Assembly: GCA_024278335.1 (NCBI GenBank)
Contig: JAJRTJ010000001.1
Coordinates: forward strand, 94,020-158,019
Length of the DNA: 64,000 nucleotides
Direction: 5' to 3'
DNA from: an archaeon
GTDB lineage: Archaea > Nanobdellota > Nanobdellia > Pacearchaeales > GW2011-AR1
Shown here: positions 42,397 through 58,289 of the stretch, one piece after another
Position numbering within the stretch: the stretch's first letter is position 1
Layout: each line of letters begins with the position of its first letter
Notes under the pieces: model-generated
The model's database searches: none
The model's input: only the letters and a program-made list of their open reading frames with translations
What the model was told of the DNA's origin: nothing
Made by a program: the position numbers and the translations under genes

Positions 42397-42469
42397 GGTC
42401 CCATGGTCTAGTGGTTATGACGACTCGTTTACACCGAGTAGATCGACGGTTCGATTCCGTCTGGGACCA
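42397..42469 (+). tRNA. tRNA-Val(TAC)
   Basis: GGTCCCA/TGGGACC acceptor, ACTCG-TTTACAC-CGAGT, GACGG-TTCGATT-CCGTC. Confidence 0.94.
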
Positions 42470-42559
42470 TTTAGGAATCGAACTTTAGTTTATGCGAAGC
42501 AACTGCGTTGATGAGTATAGGGGAGAACTTTGTTCAAGCCCGATTCCGTCTGGGACCAT
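42452..42559 (+). repeat. 19-bp exact direct repeat of the tRNA-Val 3' end (att-like scar)
   Basis: CGATTCCGTCTGGGACCAT at 42452-42470 and 42541-42559. Confidence 0.85.
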
Positions 42560-49491: not shown

Positions 49492-51246
49492 ATGACTAAG
49501 ATTAGACAGCCAATTGTAACAGTTTGCGGTCATGTTGACCATGGAAAAACATCAATCCTTGATTGTCTTAGAGGCTCTTGTATTCAAAAACAAGAAGCAG
49601 GGGGAATAACTCAAAAAATCTCTTTTACACTATATCCAACAACTCAGCTCAAACAAGCCTGTCCTTTAATTGAAAGTTCTGGTATAAAACTCAATATTCC
49701 AGGATTTCTTTTAATAGACACACCCGGACATGCTGCATTTACAAATTTAAGAAAAAGAGGAGGCTCTTTGGCAGATTTAGCAGTCTTAGTTATTGATATT
49801 ACTGAAGGAATAAAACCCCAAACAGCAGAAGTAATTCAAATTTTAAAATTAAATAAAACTCCATTTATAATTGCATTAAATAAGATAGATAAAATCTCTG
49901 GATGGAGAACAGATAAAGAAATTTCATTAAAGCAATCTATTGAATCTCAAGCCCAGCATGTCCAGCAAAGATTTCAAGAGCTTTATATGACTCTTATTGG
50001 CTCTTTAAACTCACATGGTTTTGACGCAGATTTATTTTACAATATCAAAGACTTTACTCAAAAAATAGCCCTTATTCCAACTTCTGCAGAAACAAAGCAA
50101 GGAATACCAGAATTAATAATGATGCTCTGCGGATTAAGCCAAAAATATCTTGAAAACAAGCTCAAACTAGGGAAAGAGGCAAAAGGGGTAGTTCTTGAAG
50201 TTAAAAAAGAAAAATCAATGAATTATGCTGAAGCTATTCTTTACGACGGAACACTTTCAAAAAAAGATGAAATAGCAATTTCAGATTTTCAAGGAAACCC
50301 AATAATCAGCAAAATAAGAATTTTAGAAGAAATCCAGCCCCTTTGCGCAAGATTTGCCCCAAAAGAAAAAGTAGAAGCATCAACAGGATTAAGACTTCAA
50401 TTAATAACTAAAGAAGAAATTCCTGCAGGAATGCCTTTTGTTATCTATAAAAACAACCTTGAAGAAATAAAAAAAGAATTTAAAAAACAAGTCTCTGAGA
50501 CACTCTCTTCTTTTTTATCCAAACAAGGAATCATCGCAAAGGCAGACTCTTTAGGAAGTTTAGAAGCTTTGCTGGTGTTGTTAAAGCAAAGCAATATTCC
50601 AGTTCTTAAAGCAGGAATTGGAAAAATAAATAAAACAGACATAATTTCAGCCAAAGCAAATCTTGACATAAATGAATTAGACGCACTTATTGTTGGATTT
50701 AATGTAGAGCCAAACCAAGAAGCTAAAGAGCTGTTGGCAAGCTATGGAGAAAAATCAAAAATAAAAATCTTGACAGGAGAAGTGATTTATAAATTAATTG
50801 AAGACTTGGCAGAAATCAGAGAAAAAAGAAAAAGAGAAATAGAAAAACAAAGAATTATGGCTCTTAGCACTATTGCAAAAATAGAAATCTTGCATGAATA
50901 TGTTTTTAGAAACACAAATCCAACTATTTTTGGAGTTAGAATCATAGCAGGCAAATTAAAACAAAATTTAATGCTAATAAATAAACAAGGAGAAAAAGTT
51001 GGTAAAACAAAAGCAATCCAGTTAGACAAAAAGCCGGTTGAAGAAGCAACTGAAGGCCAGGAAGTTGCACTTTCTGTTTCTGGAACAAATTATGAAAGAC
51101 AGCTTAAAGACAAAAAATATCTTTACACAGATTTAGGAGAGTCTGCATTTAAAGAATTTAAAGAAAATAAAGACCTCTTAACAGAAACTGAAAAAAAAGC
51201 TCTTGCAGAAATCGCAGATATTAAAAGAAAATTAAACCCTGATTAG
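49492..51246 (+). CDS. infB: Translation initiation factor aIF5B
   Basis: RQPIVTVCGHVDHGKT, ITQ, DTPGH, NKID, ADSLGSLEAL. Confidence 0.96.
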   Translation: MTKIRQPIVTVCGHVDHGKTSILDCLRGSCIQKQEAGGITQKISFTLYPTTQLKQACPLIESSGIKLNIPGFLLIDTPGHAAFTNLRKRGGSLADLAVLVIDITEGIKPQTAEVIQILKLNKTPFIIALNKIDKISGWRTDKEISLKQSIESQAQHVQQRFQELYMTLIGSLNSHGFDADLFYNIKDFTQKIALIPTSAETKQGIPELIMMLCGLSQKYLENKLKLGKEAKGVVLEVKKEKSMNYAEAILYDGTLSKKDEIAISDFQGNPIISKIRILEEIQPLCARFAPKEKVEASTGLRLQLITKEEIPAGMPFVIYKNNLEEIKKEFKKQVSETLSSFLSKQGIIAKADSLGSLEALLVLLKQSNIPVLKAGIGKINKTDIISAKANLDINELDALIVGFNVEPNQEAKELLASYGEKSKIKILTGEVIYKLIEDLAEIREKRKREIEKQRIMALSTIAKIEILHEYVFRNTNPTIFGVRIIAGKLKQNLMLINKQGEKVGKTKAIQLDKKPVEEATEGQEVALSVSGTNYERQLKDKKYLYTDLGESAFKEFKENKDLLTETEKKALAEIADIKRKLNPD

Positions 51247-51310
51247 GGAATCTAAGTTCTCGCTAATTCATCAGAGATAAACTAAAGAAAATCCGGAATT
51301 GGGAGTTTAA
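51229..51310 (+). repeat. Recoded duplication of the aIF5B C-terminal codons (KLNPD*GI* / KENPELGV*)
   Basis: 51229-51255 versus 51284-51310, offset 55, 19/27 nt identical. Confidence 0.7.
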
Positions 51311-51440
51311 TTCCCCTAACAAAAAACAACAATTTTAAAAACTATCTCCAAAAACAAATTTTATGATATTAAACCAATTATTAAAACCAATAAAAAGAAT
51401 TTTGAGAATACAGGTGACCAAGAAACTTCCATAACTCAGA

Positions 51441-51713
51441 TTGTCTTCTCCAGGAACAAAAACCTGCACAAAGTCTTGCTTATATTTTAATCCAGCAGGA
51501 AATTCAGACCCTTTAAAAAACACCTGTTTTTTTCTCTCTGCTCTTAAAGAAATACATCCCCCAGAAACAGATTATCAAGCTTTTAAAGGGCAAGGGCCTT
51601 CATTAATTCCTCCTGAAAATAGACCCTGTATTTATGAATTAGAAAAAGGAGAAACACTAAAGTTGGCAAGGCTAAGAATATCATCAAAATTTGGGGTTTT
51701 TAAAACCAAATAA
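51441..51713 (+). CDS. Small Cys-containing hypothetical protein (start uncertain)
   Basis: 90-aa ORF with a TTG start. Confidence 0.35.
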   Translation: MSSPGTKTCTKSCLYFNPAGNSDPLKNTCFFLSALKEIHPPETDYQAFKGQGPSLIPPENRPCIYELEKGETLKLARLRISSKFGVFKTK

Positions 51714-51749
51714 TTTAAAAACCAATTCTTCAATTAATCTATATCAAAA

Positions 51750-52250
51750 ATGGCTTTTAAAATAAATATTTCAGAAAAATCAGGAAAAACTTACAAGTTA
51801 GAAGTAGAAGAAAATATCTTAAATGATAAAAAACTTCACGACAAAATCCAAGGAAATATTTTAAACCCAGATTTAGAAGGATATGAGCTAGAAATTACTG
51901 GAGCAAGCGACAAGTCAGGCTTTACTGCAATGGAAGGAGTTGCAGGAATTGGTTTAAAAAAAGTTCTTTTAGGATATGGAAAAGGAATGAAAAAAAGACC
52001 AAAAAAAGAGGGGAAAAAAGAATACTCCAACAAAACTCCAAAAGGATTAAGACTTAGAAAAACAGTTAGAGGAGAAGTCATTTCTTCTGCAATTGTTCAA
52101 ATAAATCTTAAAGTTCTTAAAGAAGGTTCAAAAAAACTTGAAGAAATCTTCAAAACAAAAGAAGCTTCAAAAGAAGGAGAAGCACCTGCACAAGTAACAC
52201 AGGAAGAAAAACCTGCTGAAGCGCCAAAGCAAGAAGAAGTTAAAAAATAA
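51750..52250 (+). CDS. rps6e: 30S ribosomal protein eS6
   Basis: LEITGASDKSGF...G.R.RKTVRGEVI...QINLKV. Confidence 0.93.
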   Translation: MAFKINISEKSGKTYKLEVEENILNDKKLHDKIQGNILNPDLEGYELEITGASDKSGFTAMEGVAGIGLKKVLLGYGKGMKKRPKKEGKKEYSNKTPKGLRLRKTVRGEVISSAIVQINLKVLKEGSKKLEEIFKTKEASKEGEAPAQVTQEEKPAEAPKQEEVKK

Positions 52251-53896: not shown

Positions 53897-53969
53897 GGGT
53901 TTAAAAAATTTTGCAAAATACCTAAAAGTAACAATAAAACTTTATTAACTCAGATTTTTACACAACATA

Positions 53970-54821
53970 ATGGGAAAATATTCACATTCTAAACTTTCAA
54001 CTTTTGAACAATGCCCATTTAGATTTAAACTAAGATATATTGACAAAATAAAGCCAGAAATAGAAAAATCAATTGAAGCCCATCTTGGGACGGCAGTTCA
54101 TGATACATTAGAATGGATTTATCTTAAAGCACAAAAACAAAATCCCCCAAAAATTGATGAAGTAATTGCTTTTTATACTGACTCATGGAAAAAAGATTTC
54201 TCAGAAAATATTGAAATTGTCAAAGACTTAACCCCTGAAGATTATTTTAACAAAGGTGTGCAGTTTCTTCTTAATTATTATCAAAGGCATTTTCCATTTC
54301 AAGATGGAACAATTGAGCTTGAAAAAGAAATCTCAATCAAGCTTGGGCAGAATAAATAGCATCAAATAAGGGGATTTATAGATCGGCTGGTTTTCAACCC
54401 TGCAACACAAGAATATGAAATTCACGACTATAAAACTGCAAACACTCTGCCGACAAAAGAAAAAATAGAACAAGACCGCCAGCTTGCACTTTATTCTATT
54501 GCCATAAAAGAGCAGTTTGGACAAGAAAAAGAAGTAAAACTTGTCTGGCACTACCTTGCTCATGACACGCAAATAGAATCAAAAAAATCAAATCAACAGC
54601 TTGAAGAATTGAAACAAGAAATAATAAACTTAATTGAAAAAATAGAATCAGCTGAAGAATTTCCAAAACAAGAGTCAATTCTCTGCAAGTGGTGTGAATA
54701 CAAAAATCTCTGCAAAGAATTTTCAATACAAGAACAGCAACAAAAAGAAAAACTCTTAAAAGAAAAATTTCCAACAGCAAGTAAATATATTAAAAAAGAA
54801 TTTCACAATATTTTGGAATAA
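53970..54821 (+). CDS. PD-(D/E)XK nuclease (Cas4/AddB-like, Fe-S staple) interrupted by one in-frame TAG at 54357-54359
   Basis: SHSKLSTFEQCP, GTAVH, EK, then after the TAG: GFIDRL, IHDYKT, QLALY, CKWCEYKNLC in the same frame. Confidence 0.85.
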
Positions 54822-54822
54822 A

Positions 54823-57270
54823 TCACTCTTTTTTTTCTGCTTCTTCAACAACTCTTACGACATCACTAACCCTATCCCCTGGTTGGAGTTTGACAATTCT
54901 AACTCCTTGTGCAGCACGGCCCATCACACGAATATTTTTCAATCCAGTTCTAATTACCATTCCTTTGGCAGTTGTAATAATAATGCTGTCTTTATCTGTA
55001 ACTGCCACTGTATTAACAACATTTCCTGTTTTCTAGGAAACCTTTAAATTAATAACTCCTTTTCCAGCACGAGCAGTTTTTCTATAATCTTCAACAGCAG
55101 TTCTTTTTCCATAGCCTTTTTCTGTAACAGTTAAAATATTTGCAGTCCCTAAAACTTCTAAACTCACAACTTCGTCATTTGGTTTTAGCTTTATTCCTGC
55201 CACACCATAACTTGCCCTGCCCATTGCCCGAACATCATCAGCATTAAACCTAATTGCCTGACCTTTTTTTGTCGCCAGAGTAACTTCCTGCCCTTCTTTA
55301 AGAACCTCTACTCCAATTAAATTATCAGAATGGTCTGCCGGAAGATTAATTGCCCGCACTCCTGAAGCACGAGGCTTTGAAAAATGACTTAATGCAATTT
55401 TCTTAACAATTCCTTTTTTAGTTGCCATAAATAAATAATCATCAAAAGATTTAACAGAGATTACACTTGTTACTTCTTCGTTCTTTAATCCAAGCAAATT
55501 AGTCAAAGCCCTTCCTTTGCTGTATCTTTCTGCTTCTGGAATATCATGCGCCTTAAGCCATAAAACTCTTCCCCGAGAAGTAAAAAACATTAAATAATCC
55601 AAAGTAGAACAGCTAATCAACTGCCTTGTAAAATCGTCGGTAGCAAGATTGCTTCCAATAACTCCTTTCCCTCCTCTCCTCTGTTGCCTATAAGATGAAA
55701 CATCCATTCTTTTAACATAACCTTTGTCAGTAATCGTTACAATAACGTCCTTTTTTTGCACAAGGTCTTTCTCAGAAATCTCATTAATTTTCTTTAAAAC
55801 CCGAGTCCTTCTTTCATCTCCATATTTATTCTTTAATTCCTTGACTTCTTTTACAATAATTTTAATAACTTCTTTAATATCTCCAAGAATATTGTCTAAT
55901 TCTTTAATTAACTTCTTCAATTCCTCTTCCTCTTTTTTCAACTTATCAACTTCAAGGGAAGTCAATTGCTGTAACCGGGTTTCCAAGACTGCTTCTGCCT
56001 GCCTTTGGCTTAACTTATATTTTTTCATTAAGCCTTCCATTGCTTCATTTTTAGTCTTGGATTTTTTAATCAAAGAAATAACAGCATCAATGTTTTTTAA
56101 AGCAATTAAAAGCCCTTCAACAAGCTCTTTTCTTTCTTTTGCTTTCTTTAATTCAAATTCAGTTCTTTTTGTAATAATTTTTTTTCTGTATTCAACATAT
56201 TCCTTCAAAACCTGCTTTAATCCAAGAACTTTTGGTTGTCCATTTACAAGAGCCAGAAAATTAACACTAAAAGAATCTTGAAGCCGGGTATATTTATACA
56301 GCGCATTTACAATTAAATCAGGATTTGCACCTTTTCTTAATTCAATTACAATTCTAATCTGGCCTTTAGAAGACTCGTCTCTCAAATCAGAAACGTCCCT
56401 AATTTTTTTATCCCTAACCAATACAGCTATTTGCTCAACCAAAGTAGACTTATTTACCATATAAGGTATTTCAGTAATAACAACTGCATCTTTTTTCTTA
56501 ATTGTCTCTATTTTAGTCTTTCCTCTTAAAATAAGCCTTCCTCTTCCAGTTTCATAAAGTTCTTCCATATCCCCAGAAACACTTCCTCCAGTAGGAAAAT
56601 CAGGACCAGTAATAATCTTTGTAAGTTCCTTTATTTCAATATTTGGTTTATTAACATAAGCAATAATCGCGTCGCAGACCTCTGTTAAATTATGGGGAGG
56701 AATGTTTGTTGCCATTCCTACTGCAATTCCTGTTGCTCCATTAAGCATTAAAGCGGGAAGTTTTCCTGGAAGCAGGCTCGGCTCTTTCAAGGAAGCATCA
56801 TAATTTGGGACAAATTTGACAGTCTCTTTATCAATATCTGCAAGCAACTCGCTTGAAATAGGCATTAATTTGGCTTCTGTATATCTCATTGCTGCGGCCT
56901 CATCTCCGTCAATAGAGCCAAAATTACCTTGTCCAAAAACAAGGGGATATCTTAATGAAAACTCTTGGGCCATACGCACCATTGTTTCATAAACTGCAGA
57001 ATCTCCATGAGGGTGATACTTACCAATCACATCTCCCACAATTCTTGCTGACTTTTTTGTAGAAGTATTTGGCTTTAATCCCATTGCCTGCATTGAATAA
57101 AGAATCCTTCTCTGAACTGGTTTCAAACCATCCTCAATTGCAGGAATTGCCCGAGAAACAATAACACTCATTGCATAATCCAAATAAGCTTTTTTCATTT
57201 CCTCAGACACTTCTGCTTGAATAATCCCTTTCTCTATCTCATTAATTTTGTCTGTTTCTGACGGAGTCAT
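54823..57270 (-). CDS. gyrA: DNA gyrase subunit A, interrupted by one in-frame TAG at 55033-55035
   Basis: [20 protein letters not shown], GyrA-box QRRGGKG. The final blade (...[12 protein letters not shown]) continues in frame after the TAG. Confidence 0.95.
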
Positions 57271-57581
57271 GCTATTTCTTCTCCTTTTTTATCTAAATAT
57301 TCCATAAGCTCGTCTTCTGTGAATTCTTTTTTAACAATATCGGCCCCTTTCCATTTGCATTTATGGCACTCCCACTCTTCTCCCCCTCCTATTTCAGAAT
57401 CTTTTCCACTTAAAACAACCCCCACATCATCACTCCCACATTTTGGACATTCCCTGATTGTAAATGTTTTGCCTTTTTTCTTTTTTCGCACTTTTTTGCC
57501 AGTAGCCTTAGCATATTCTTCAGGAGAATCATATCCTTCCCTTATCCAATCTGGTGTTGATAATTTTGATTTCTTCGCCAT
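57267..57581 (-). CDS. Zinc-ribbon protein
   Basis: CPKCGS...WECHKC, with ATGA coupling to gyrA. Confidence 0.7.
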
Positions 57582-58195: not shown

Positions 58196-58289
58196 TTACA
58201 CGTCTAAATCTGCCTCCCTGGTTTGGCTCATCAGAGACGAGCTAGTGGCGGCAAATCGAGATTCTCTACACATCGAGATTTGCCTCCCG
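58196..58289 (-). repeat. Recoded duplication of the gyrB C-terminal codons (REANLDV* / READLDV*)
   Basis: 58266-58289 versus 58196-58219, offset 70, 18/24 nt identical, 6/7 aa identical. Confidence 0.8.

What the first reader, a model, noticed from the sequence alone, without database searches (positions are those of the whole stretch)
51229..51319. aIF5B ends twice: recoded duplicate C-terminus, with a TAG in the used copy
Seen: AAA TTA AAC CCT GAT TAG GGA ATC TAA (KLNPD*GI*) is followed 55 bp later by AAA GAA AAT CCG GAA TTG GGA GTT TAA (KENPELGV*), in a different frame. The TAG aligns with TTG (Leu) of the second copy, so the protein as encoded lacks its last 3 residues. The region is extensively self-complementary (TTAGGGAAT 51243-51251 with ATTCCCCTAA 51310-51319; GGAATT/AATTCC), and the spacer carries the 10-mer shared with the gyrB insert.
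Basis: partly seen in the sequence, partly recalled or inferred. Interest (0 to 1): 0.65.

Follow-up and report, generated by a model that had tools for sequence, protein, structure and literature searches.

The report
Small insert duplicates aIF5B gene end
In this tiny DPANN archaeon the essential translation factor gene aIF5B has its last nine codons twice around a roughly 30-40-base insert, one of at least 15 such "double ends" in the genome, and the copy in use has a stop codon where all relatives have a conserved tryptophan, most simply a point mutation or an assembly error.

Summary
aIF5B (49492-51246) ends KLNPD-TAG-GI-TAA. A second end, KENPELGV-TAA, lies 55 nt downstream in another frame. 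Both match the family's C-terminus (…KRxxxx[DE]-W-G-[IVM]-stop). The second copy is the second-best match to that tail among 1.15 million six-frame positions of the genome.

The TAG sits on a Trp found in 108 of 119 close homologues and in the solved Methanothermobacter and Pyrococcus aIF5B chains. As assembled, the protein therefore lacks W-G-I.

This is not an isolated oddity. Four other housekeeping genes (gyrB, aEF-2, uS2, an RsmB-type methyltransferase) and 10 of 36 tRNA genes in this 575-kb genome carry a terminal segment twice around a 38-89-nt insert. The aIF5B spacer resembles the tRNA-Val insert (empirical p about 0.001) and shares a genome-unique 10-mer with the gyrB insert.

Best reading: an old, degenerate miniature insertion that duplicated or replaced the gene end and left an orphan copy.

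The TAG is not evidence of recoding:
- There is no tRNA-CUA.
- TAG ends 66 of 524 long ORFs.
- In-frame TAA, TGA and TAG also interrupt S4e, deoxyhypusine synthase, ArgRS, GyrA and a PD-(D/E)XK nuclease.

"Recoded" is not shown for this pair (p = 0.30).

The parts
49492..51246 (+). aIF5B (IF-2/eIF5B) coding sequence as encoded: 584 aa, ending at TAG
   Evidence: ORF list and translation. Pfam GTP_EFTU, IF-2, GTP_EFTU_D4 and GTP_EFTU_D2. 41 of 41 related genomes hold an orthologue.
51229..51255 (+). Proximal (used) gene end, copy 1: K L N P D TAG G I TAA
   Evidence: In frame with the ORF. Scores 15.1 bits as read and 24.6 bits with Trp at the TAG on the relatives' tail PSSM. Leu at position -7 is seen in none of 108 homologues.
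51244..51246 (+). TAG at the position of the conserved Trp codon (TGG in relatives)
   Evidence: Alignment of 29 relatives' ends with their codons. 108 of 119 homologues end in WGx. PDB 1G7R has ...KRKKNPDWGM and 7YYP/7ZAG have ...KEDPFW.
51248..51287 (-). Spacer or core of the insert, read on the minus strand: CTTTAGTTTAT-CTC-TGATGA-ATTAGC-GAGAACTT-AGATTC. It probably shares ancestry with the insert after tRNA-Val (42483-42535, + strand).
   Evidence: Local alignment score 37.5: 3 of 1000 shuffles and 32 of 31,056 real genomic windows reach it. The composite pattern occurs only at these two sites in the genome and once in 300 other genomes of the order. Caveat: a profile built from the four tRNA inserts alone does not detect it.
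51284..51310 (+). Distal orphan gene end, copy 2: K E N P E L G V TAA, frame +1, preceded by an in-frame TAA (R*TKENPELGV*)
   Evidence: Second-best PSSM hit in the genome. 22 of 27 bases identical to the nearest relative's end, against 18 of 27 for copy 1. No relative has such a second end.
51230..51312 (+). Long-range helix: 51230-51244 pairs with 51296-51312. An alternative pairs 51243-51251 with 51310-51319. There is also a local hairpin, GGAATT 51295-51300 with AATTCC 51309-51314.
   Evidence: Fold: -20.9 kcal/mol, z about -2. The unusual TTA (Leu) codon of copy 1 supplies two of the base pairs, with the TAA of copy 2 (read directly from the sequence).
51311..51616 (.). About 300 nt of unexplained extra sequence between the orphan end and the conserved upstream region of the S6e gene
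   Evidence: Only 51617-51760 aligns with the aIF5B-S6e spacer of L031. No Pfam match for its ORFs. No repeat or relative found. No Rfam match beyond a chance-level one.
42452..42559 (+). Comparison locus: the tRNA-Val 3' end (19 nt, exact) occurs twice around a 70-nt insert at 42471-42540
58196..58289 (-). Comparison locus: gyrB ends twice, AREANLDV-TAG then a 43-nt spacer containing TCTCTGATGA then TREADLDV-TAA

Best explanation
The 3' end of aIF5B carries an old, partly decayed miniature insertion of a kind that is pervasive in this genome.

Shown:
- A short non-coding insert sits between two direct copies of the gene's terminal segment.
- The proximal copy keeps the reading frame closed, so the gene stays whole.
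- The distal copy is an untranslated orphan.
- The same layout occurs at gyrB, aEF-2, uS2, an RsmB-type methyltransferase and 10 of 36 tRNA genes.

Inferred:
- The aIF5B insert belongs with the tRNA-Val-type inserts.
- The event is old: the two copies now differ at 8 of 27 bases and the core is shortened.
- The element has no gene of its own. It was placed either by a recombinase acting in trans (two tyrosine recombinases are encoded elsewhere) or by a hairpin or template-switch process.
- Whether the proximal copy was duplicated in place or brought in from another lineage is unresolved.

The TAG is a separate, later event. It is a single-base change, TGG to TAG, in the used copy that removes the conserved W-G-I tail. 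The orphan copy has TGG to TTG. The TAG is one of at least six in-frame stops in conserved genes of this assembly. It is therefore either a real nonsense mutation that is tolerated or a consensus error, not a decoding signal.
For: - Both copies are real aIF5B tails.
- No second end exists in 29 relatives or in the nearest relative L031.
- Genome-wide scan: 4 other ORFs repeat their last 8 residues plus stop within 200 nt, with 0.2 expected.
- 10 of 36 tRNA genes carry exact terminal duplications of 11-48 nt around 40-89-nt inserts.
- The aIF5B spacer resembles the tRNA-Val insert (p about 0.003 by shuffles and 0.001 against real genomic windows). The composite pattern is private to these two sites.
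- TCTCTGATGA occurs only in the aIF5B and gyrB spacers.
- The tRNA-Arg(CCT) duplication is 48 nt, exact, and includes 29 nt beyond the tRNA, so at least some duplications are of host sequence.
- Both aIF5B copies share the rare Asn-Pro state, found in 5 of 108 homologues.
- On the TAG: no tRNA with a CUA anticodon even when introns are allowed. TAG ends 66 of 524 long ORFs.
- In-frame TAA in S4e and deoxyhypusine synthase lies inside single Pfam domains. There is also a TGA in ArgRS and TAGs in GyrA and a PD-(D/E)XK nuclease.
- The GyrA stop is absent from all 24 relatives, which have Glu, Ala or Asp there rather than Trp.
Against: - A profile built only from the four clear tRNA inserts does not find the aIF5B spacer. 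Its family membership therefore rests on one pairwise match and a 10-mer.
- The core is inverted relative to aIF5B but co-directional with tRNA-Val and gyrB. A simple site-specific model does not predict this.
- When polarised with L031, about 6 of the 8 differences fall on the used copy and about 2 on the orphan. Duplication in place followed by neutral decay of the orphan would predict the opposite. This fits an imported proximal copy or one reshaped to pair with the distal copy.
- In uS2, aEF-2 and gyrB the differences between copies are biased to silent sites (p = 0.002-0.02). Plain target duplication does not explain that.
- No autonomous parent element, excised form or empty-site allele was seen.
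- Three TAGs within 6 kb (51244, 54357, 55033) is a cluster that I cannot explain.
Confidence: 0.65

Rival explanations
1. Replacement-end integration. The proximal copy plus spacer was brought in by a site-specific integrative element, since reduced to a stub, that carries its own copy of the aIF5B end from another lineage. The distal copy is the native end. The TAG came in with the untranslated, element-borne copy.
For: - Copy 2 is closer to the nearest relative (22/27 against 18/27) and to 26 relatives on average (16.9 against 15.9 of 27).
- Most polarisable changes are on copy 1, which carries a Leu never seen in 108 homologues.
- There is a silent-site bias between copies in uS2, aEF-2 and gyrB.
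- The targets are highly conserved genes and tRNAs, as for integrases.
- Two tyrosine recombinases are present in the genome.
- Partial duplication of tRNA genes by integrating elements, and stubs that keep attL and attR (CIMEs), are documented (PMC9897764, PMC5704250).
Against: - There is no silent bias in the aIF5B pair itself (p = 0.30).
- Both copies share the rare Asn-Pro state.
- The best-preserved relatives of the insert (tRNA-Arg 48/48, including 29 nt of flank; tRNA-Val 19/19) have exact duplications.
- The core is inverted relative to the gene.
- No parent element was found in 300 genomes of the order or in 185,000 species genomes.
Confidence: 0.2
2. The TAG is decoded. Either UAG is read through or recoded (as Trp or another residue), possibly helped by the helix that contains it, or the A is edited, so that the full ...NPDWGI tail is made.
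For: - The two codons and the TAA after the TAG still fit the family consensus (G, I, stop).
- The TAG lies inside a long helix.
- Two neighbouring conserved genes (PD-(D/E)XK nuclease at 54357, GyrA at 55033) also have an in-frame TAG followed by intact coding sequence.
Against: - There is no tRNA-CUA.
- TAG ends 66 of 524 long ORFs, and the sequence after those stops is not coding-like apart from neighbouring genes in the same frame.
- Relatives have Glu, Ala or Asp at the other two TAGs, not Trp.
- In-frame TAA and TGA also occur in essential genes, so the phenomenon is not specific to TAG.
- Relatives use TAG as the aIF5B stop.
- Two preserved codons after the TAG carry little weight.
Confidence: 0.07
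3. The 55 nt are removed or bypassed at the RNA or translation level (a bulge-helix-bulge intron, another processing step, or a ribosomal hop). The distal copy would then be the real end and the proximal one only a fallback.
For: - Deleting exactly 55 nt puts copy 2 in frame and gives ...IKRKENPELGV.
- Copy 2 is at least as well preserved as copy 1.
- In other genomes of this scan the unused copy was reported to evolve like coding sequence (unchecked notes).
Against: - No bulge-helix-bulge motif stands above background, and none has the required 55-nt spacing (6 relaxed hits against about 29 expected per 187 nt).
- Copy 2 also lacks the conserved Trp (TTG).
- There is no Rfam family here.
- There is no matched take-off and landing codon pair next to the stop.
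Confidence: 0.04
4. Artefact or chance. The second end is a coincidental match, or an assembly join of two strain variants.
For: - The genome is a metagenome-type assembly (4 contigs, 83% complete) with several improbable in-frame stops in essential genes.
- The copy 1 against copy 2 DNA alignment alone is not significant.
Against: - Copy 2 is the second-best tail match in the genome and matches the nearest relative's DNA (0 of 2000 shuffles).
- The spacer is unique sequence related to another insert, not a strain variant of the gene.
- The same layout recurs at 14 other loci.
Confidence: 0.04

Closest known systems
Integrative elements that enter the 3' end of a gene and carry a replacement end (prophage e14 and phage 21 in E. 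coli icd; tRNA- and tmRNA-targeting prophages and islands)
   Same: Direct repeat of the target gene's terminal segment on both sides of the insert. The gene stays complete. The targets are tRNA genes and highly conserved housekeeping genes. Partial tRNA duplication by integrating elements is documented (PMC9897764). The icd case is from my own knowledge.
   Different: Here the insert is 28-55 nt with no integrase or any other gene. The core is inverted relative to the gene. The best-preserved family members duplicate host flank sequence exactly. No excised or autonomous form is known.
CIMEs (cis-mobilizable elements): decayed ICEs or IMEs that keep attL and attR but have lost their integration and transfer genes (PMC5704250)
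   Same: A gene-less stub flanked by two copies of the target gene's end that could, in principle, be moved by a recombinase in trans. The genome encodes two tyrosine recombinases.
   Different: CIMEs are kilobases long, are bacterial, and are derived from identifiable ICEs. Here there are 15 stubs of 40-90 nt in a 575-kb archaeal genome and no parent element was found.
MITEs and small palindromic repeats (REP/BIME, Rickettsia palindromic elements)
   Same: Tiny, non-coding, hairpin-prone, multi-copy inserts in compact genomes that leave genes functional.
   Different: MITEs make 2-10-bp target duplications and have terminal inverted repeats. Here the duplications are 11-48 nt of the gene's end, and the inverted repeats involve the duplicated gene sequence itself.
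Amber/W sites (UAG in place of UGG) and programmed stop-codon readthrough or reassignment (pyrrolysine, suppressor tRNAs, hepatitis delta amber/W editing)
   Same: A UAG exactly at a conserved Trp codon, inside a helix, followed by intact codons.
   Different: No decoding machinery was found. TAG is a normal terminator here. The other in-frame stops are of all three kinds and lie at non-Trp positions.

Membership tests
aIF5B / IF-2 / eIF5B | GTPase domain, domain II, IF-2 domain and domain IV | tested here: met
   Pfam GTP_EFTU, GTP_EFTU_D2, IF-2 and GTP_EFTU_D4. PDB 1G7R, 7YYP and 7ZAG match.
aIF5B / IF-2 / eIF5B | C-terminal tail ...KRxxxx[DE]-W-G-x-stop of the archaeal proteins | tested here: not met
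   The gene stops at TAG in place of the Trp codon. The tail is complete only if the TAG is read as a residue.
Gene-3'-end integrative elements with a replacement end | Direct repeat of the target gene's 3' end flanking the insert | tested here: met
   Copies at 51229-51255 and 51284-51310, both matching the family tail.
Gene-3'-end integrative elements with a replacement end | Integrase or recombinase gene inside the element | tested here: not met
   The insert is at most 55 nt. The 300 nt beyond it have no Pfam match. Tyrosine recombinases exist only elsewhere, at C1:7291-7779 and C3:40664-41140.
Gene-3'-end integrative elements with a replacement end | The proximal copy is foreign: it differs from the native distal copy mainly at silent sites | tested here: inconclusive
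   p = 0.30 for aIF5B; significant for uS2, aEF-2 and gyrB. Copy 2 is nearer to relatives, but both copies share the rare Asn-Pro state.
CIME (attL/attR stub) | A related autonomous element that uses the same site | tested here: not met
   The core pattern is absent from 300 genomes of the order, and exact core matches in 185,579 species genomes are unrelated coding sequence.
CIME (attL/attR stub) | Excision or mobilisation in trans | not testable with these tools
   This needs reads with empty or circular forms, or an assay.
MITE | Short (2-10 bp) target-site duplication and terminal inverted repeats of the element itself | tested here: not met
   The duplications are at least 27 nt here and 11-48 nt at tRNAs. 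The inverted repeats are made of the duplicated gene sequence.
G000 tRNA-3'-end insert family (Arg-CCT, Ile-GAT, Thr-GGT, Val-TAC) | Blocks TAGTTTATG ... GAYGAGCATAGG ... TTCAAG..GCC, preceded by the complement of the target's own T-loop | tested here: inconclusive
   The pairwise match to the Val insert has p about 0.001 and shares the blocks CTTTAGTTTAT, TGATGA and GAGAACTT. A profile of the four tRNA inserts does not hit aIF5B at E <= 10.
Stop-codon reassignment or suppression of UAG | A tRNA with a CUA anticodon, or pyrrolysine machinery | tested here: not met
   ARAGORN with and without introns finds 36 tRNAs and none has CUA. The genome is 83% complete, so absence is not proof.
Stop-codon reassignment or suppression of UAG | TAG not used as a terminator; many in-frame TAGs at conserved positions | tested here: not met
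   66 of 524 ORFs of at least 120 aa end in TAG. Only 3 in-frame TAGs were found, alongside in-frame TAA and TGA.
Archaeal bulge-helix-bulge intron in an mRNA | hBHBh' motif at both boundaries, with spacing that restores the frame | tested here: not met
   A relaxed scan gives 6 hits, none with 55-nt spacing, against a background of about 29 per 187 nt.
C/D box sRNA | C (RUGAUGA) and D (CUGA) boxes with C'/D' and guide spacing | tested here: not met
   Only a C-like CTGATGA on the minus strand (read directly from the sequence). Rfam finds no C/D family here; the nearest, snR76 at 50842-50930, has E = 5.1 and lies elsewhere.

The most novel reading that the evidence does not exclude
The double ends mark a class of gene-less miniature mobile elements of ultra-small archaea, not described in the literature I could search. 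The elements would insert at the ends of tRNA and essential protein genes and rebuild the gene end as they do so. They would pick their sites through a short segment complementary to the target: the complement of the target's own T-loop in the tRNA inserts, and ATTCCCCTAA or GGGAGTTTAATT against the aIF5B end here. aIF5B would then be a secondary site, because its conserved tail sequence (AAATCC....TTGGG.G) resembles a tRNA T-loop-to-acceptor segment.
Probability: 0.12. Interest if true: 0.85.

Novelty: new variant of a known kind. Interest (0 to 1): 0.5.

Why it matters
If the class is real, about 15 gene-less inserts of 40-90 nt in a 575-kb genome all sit at the very ends of tRNA and core information-processing genes without breaking them. 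That would be a mode of genome parasitism or repair in streamlined genomes that I could not find described in the literature I could search. It could also confound gene calling, tRNA counts and pseudogene calls in DPANN and CPR assemblies.

The aIF5B case adds a possible bridge between the tRNA inserts and the protein-gene inserts. It also shows that such an insert can leave a damaged gene end: a deeply conserved Trp is lost.

The cluster of in-frame stops matters in its own right. Either this assembly has base errors that create stops, or a reduced archaeon tolerates or reads through stops in S4e, GyrA, aIF5B and others.

Tried and rejected
- Rfam at a permissive threshold over 50500-52000 gave nothing relevant.
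- BLAST of the region against the whole genome showed it is not a repeated element. Most shared 10-mers are at chance level.
- The tRNA-Lys and tRNA-Asn 5' insert module is unrelated to the aIF5B spacer.
- Bulge-helix-bulge intron: no signal above background.
- C/D box sRNA or hammerhead reading of CTGATGA: the partner boxes are missing (by eye, from the sequence).
- DGR-type adenine-specific mutagenesis between the copies: the differences are not adenine-specific (by eye, from the sequence).
- TAG = Trp or another sense codon: rejected, as set out under the TAG rival.
- The profile of the four tRNA inserts does not hit aIF5B.
- Searches for the core in 300 genomes of the order and in 185,579 species genomes gave only chance hits.
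- The 300 nt after copy 2 have no homology, no Pfam match and no repeat.
- KHKGDWGI*, the top PSSM hit, is an out-of-frame chance match inside what I read by eye as a TYW1-like gene (not searched).
- Folding of all the double-end loci gave only modest z-scores, -0.7 to -2.7, so no strong common structure.
- No closer relative than 77% protein identity exists in the 5.8-billion-protein collection, so no same-species allele could be compared.
Full report
**What is there**

The window comes from a 575-kb, 4-contig, 32% G+C assembly of a Pacearchaeota-type DPANN archaeon. aIF5B is the 584-codon ORF 49492-51246.

Its end reads AAA TTA AAC CCT GAT TAG GGA ATC TAA (51229-51255). Fifty-five bases further on, in frame +1, lies AAA GAA AAT CCG GAA TTG GGA GTT TAA (51284-51310). 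Nineteen of 27 bases agree. The region folds into a long helix, 51230-51244 with 51296-51312, at -20.9 kcal/mol, which is only moderately better than shuffles (z = -2.06).

**Are both copies real gene ends?**

Yes.

- In 26 of 29 orthologues from related genomes the protein ends ...IKRxxxx[D/E/T]-W-G-[I/V/M/L]-stop, and the Trp codon is always TGG.
- 108 of the 119 closest database homologues (68-77% identity) end in WGx.
- The motif is old. The solved M. thermautotrophicus aIF5B has ...IAEIKRKKNPDWGM, and the Pyrococcus chains have ...KAKEDPFW.
- Copy 1 is K-L-N-P-D-[TAG]-G-I-stop and copy 2 is K-E-N-P-E-L-G-V-stop. The TAG and the TTG both stand on the Trp codon, each one base away from TGG.
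- A PSSM made from 25 relatives' tails ranks copy 2 second of 1.15 million six-frame positions. Reversed and shuffled genomes give about 0-1 hits that strong. The one better hit is an out-of-frame accident inside another gene.
- At the DNA level the copy-2 region matches the 3' end of the nearest relative's gene (L031; protein 77% identical; same aIF5B-S6e-aIF2-gamma-nuclease order) better than any of 2000 shuffles.
- None of the relatives has a second end.

**Context: this genome is full of double ends**

A systematic scan of 672 ORFs found four more genes whose last eight residues plus a stop recur within 200 nt, with 0.2 expected:

| Gene | Agreement between copies |
|---|---|
| RsmB-type methyltransferase | 42-nt repeat, 41 of 42 identical |
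| Ribosomal protein uS2 | 21 of 27 |
| aEF-2 | 20 of 27 |
| gyrB | 19 of 27 |

aEF-2 was named from its sequence motifs only.

Ten of 36 tRNA genes carry a copy of one of their ends around a 40-89-nt insert. The copies are exact 16-mers in nine; tRNA-Asp has two mismatches in 16, and its exact repeat is 11 nt.

- Six have a copy of their 3' end downstream: Arg-CCT (48 nt, of which 29 nt lie beyond the tRNA), Arg-TCG, Asn, Ile-GAT, Thr-GGT and Val-TAC.
- Four have a copy of their 5' start upstream: Phe, Lys, Glu-TTC and Asp.

The Arg-CCT, Ile, Thr and Val inserts form one clear family. In order, each consists of:

- the complement of its own tRNA's T-loop;
- TAGTTTATG;
- a variable hairpin;
- GAYGAGCATAGG;
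- TTCAAG..GCC.

Earlier notes of this scan had flagged gyrB, tRNA-Val and the tRNA-Lys and tRNA-Asn cases in this genome, and similar inserts in other DPANN and CPR genomes. I treated those notes as leads and re-derived the local cases independently.

**Does the aIF5B insert belong with them?**

Probably, but the evidence is moderate.

For:
- Read on the minus strand, the spacer is CTTTAGTTTAT-CTC-TGATGA-ATTAGC-GAGAACTT. The tRNA-Val insert has CTTTAGTTTAT-...-TGATGA-...-GAGAACTT in the same order.
- The alignment score is reached by 3 of 1000 shuffles and by 32 of 31,056 real genomic windows, several of which are true family members.
- The composite pattern occurs only at these two sites in the genome, once (by chance) in 300 other genomes of the order, and never in the reversed control.
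- TCTCTGATGA occurs only in the aIF5B and gyrB spacers. The pairwise aIF5B-gyrB score is weak, however (p about 0.011).

Against:
- A profile built from the four tRNA inserts alone does not detect the aIF5B spacer.
- The core is inverted relative to aIF5B, whereas it runs with tRNA-Val and gyrB.

I read the aIF5B copy as a short, old, degenerate member.

**How did the two copies arise?**

Two models remain.

*Duplication of host sequence at insertion, followed by divergence.* Support:
- The tRNA cases have exact duplications, one of which includes 29 nt of flank.
- Both aIF5B copies share the rare Asn-Pro state, found in 5 of 108 homologues.
- The differences between the aIF5B copies show no silent-site bias (p = 0.30).

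*An imported replacement end, as in e14 or phage 21 at icd.* Support:
- Copy 2 is nearer to relatives than copy 1 (22 against 18 of 27 with L031; mean 16.9 against 15.9 over 26 relatives).
- About six of the eight differences map to the used copy.
- Copy 1 has a Leu never seen in 108 homologues.
- The differences between copies in uS2, aEF-2 and gyrB are biased to silent sites (combined p about 1e-4).

The odd TTA (Leu) codon of copy 1 supplies two base pairs with the TAA of copy 2 in the long helix. The used copy may therefore have been shaped by, or for, pairing. I cannot decide between the models without closer relatives, and none exists above 77% identity in the collections searched.

No recombinase lies in or next to the insert. 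Two tyrosine recombinases are encoded elsewhere. No parent element was found.

**The TAG**

As encoded, the protein lacks W-G-I. I found no sign that TAG is decoded:

- No tRNA-CUA was found among 36 tRNAs, with introns allowed.
- TAG terminates 66 of 524 long ORFs.
- Relatives use TAG as the aIF5B stop.

Two neighbouring genes do have an in-frame TAG with intact coding sequence after it: a PD-(D/E)XK nuclease (54357) and GyrA (55033). Relatives have Glu, Ala or Asp at those positions, and none of 24 relatives has a stop in GyrA.

In-frame stops are also not confined to TAG. S4e and deoxyhypusine synthase carry a TAA inside a single Pfam domain, and ArgRS has a TGA at a domain border.

The simplest reading is therefore a set of single-base changes, real or introduced by assembly. 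Several of them fit G-to-T at the first position of Glu or Gly codons; that is my inference. The aIF5B TAG is one of this set, a G-to-A change. Three TAGs within 6 kb remains an unexplained cluster.

**Rejected readings**

- No bulge-helix-bulge intron with the needed spacing.
- No Rfam family.
- No C/D box partner motifs.
- No adenine-specific mutagenesis pattern.
- Not a chance match and not a plausible assembly join, because the spacer is unique sequence and the layout recurs at 14 other loci.

**Comparison with known systems and verdict**

The layout works like integration into a gene's 3' end with restoration of that end (icd and tRNA-targeting elements; PMC9897764). It also resembles gene-less attL/attR stubs, the CIMEs (PMC5704250).

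It fails their membership tests on several counts: size, lack of any recombinase or parent element, exact duplication of host flank, and variable orientation of the core. It also fails the MITE definition, because the duplications are long.

I rate it a new variant of a known kind. The aIF5B locus is one degenerate instance plus an unrelated point change at a conserved Trp.

Interest is moderate. The class is worth pursuing. This instance adds a possible link between the tRNA inserts and the protein-gene inserts, and a count of about 15 loci in one genome. The TAG itself is most likely mundane.

Noticed in passing
window 55033-55035 (gyrA, - strand, gene 54823-57288): In-frame TAG 69 codons before the end of GyrA, with intact beta-pinwheel sequence after it. 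All 24 relatives searched have no stop and carry Glu, Ala or Asp there.
   Followed up: yes
window 54357-54359 (PD-(D/E)XK / Cas4-like nuclease, 53949-54821, +): In-frame TAG at codon 137. A single Pfam PDDEXK_1 match spans it. The nearest relative has GAA (Glu) there.
   Followed up: yes
genome C1:55100-55102 (-), C2:91651-91653 (+), C4:14420-14422 (-); all outside the window: In-frame TAA inside the S4e domain of ribosomal protein S4e, in-frame TAA inside deoxyhypusine synthase, and in-frame TGA between the catalytic and DALR domains of ArgRS. With the three TAGs, that makes at least six in-frame stops in conserved genes. They raise the question of base errors in the assembly, or of tolerated or read-through stops.
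   Followed up: partly
genome-wide: C1:14619-14865 (Arg-CCT), C2:96348 (Arg-TCG), C2:114844 (Asn), C2:132066 (Ile-GAT), C2:185864 (Thr-GGT), window 42397-42559 (Val), and 5' cases C1:128253 (Phe), C2:155805 (Lys), C4:52440 (Glu-TTC), C4:111323 (Asp): 10 of 36 tRNA genes have a copy of their 3' end downstream or of their 5' start upstream (repeats of 11-48 nt, exact except Asp) around a 40-89-nt insert. The Arg-CCT, Ile, Thr and Val inserts share a core and each begins with the complement of its own tRNA's T-loop.
   Followed up: partly
genome C2:163530 (-), C3:5295 (-), C4:40887 (-); window 58196-58289 (gyrB): An RsmB-type methyltransferase, ribosomal protein uS2, aEF-2 and gyrB each end twice. 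In uS2, aEF-2 and gyrB the two copies differ mostly at silent sites (p = 0.002-0.02), which plain duplication followed by decay does not explain.
   Followed up: partly
window 51311-51616: About 300 nt between the orphan aIF5B end and the conserved S6e upstream region have no counterpart in the nearest relative, no convincing ORF, no Pfam or Rfam match and no repeat elsewhere.
   Followed up: partly
genome C1:7291-7779 (+) and C3:40664-41140 (-): Two tyrosine recombinase genes (open frames of 307 and 309 aa) in a 575-kb genome. One is presumably XerA. The other is a candidate for moving the gene-less inserts in trans.
   Followed up: no
window 51284-51303 compared with genome C1:14691-14709: The aIF5B tail sequence AAATCC-GGAA-TTGGGAG resembles the tRNA-Arg(CCT) T-loop-to-acceptor segment AAATCC-TTCC-TTGGGCG (12 of 17). 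This could make the aIF5B end a secondary target for a tRNA-directed insert. Its significance was not tested.
   Followed up: no
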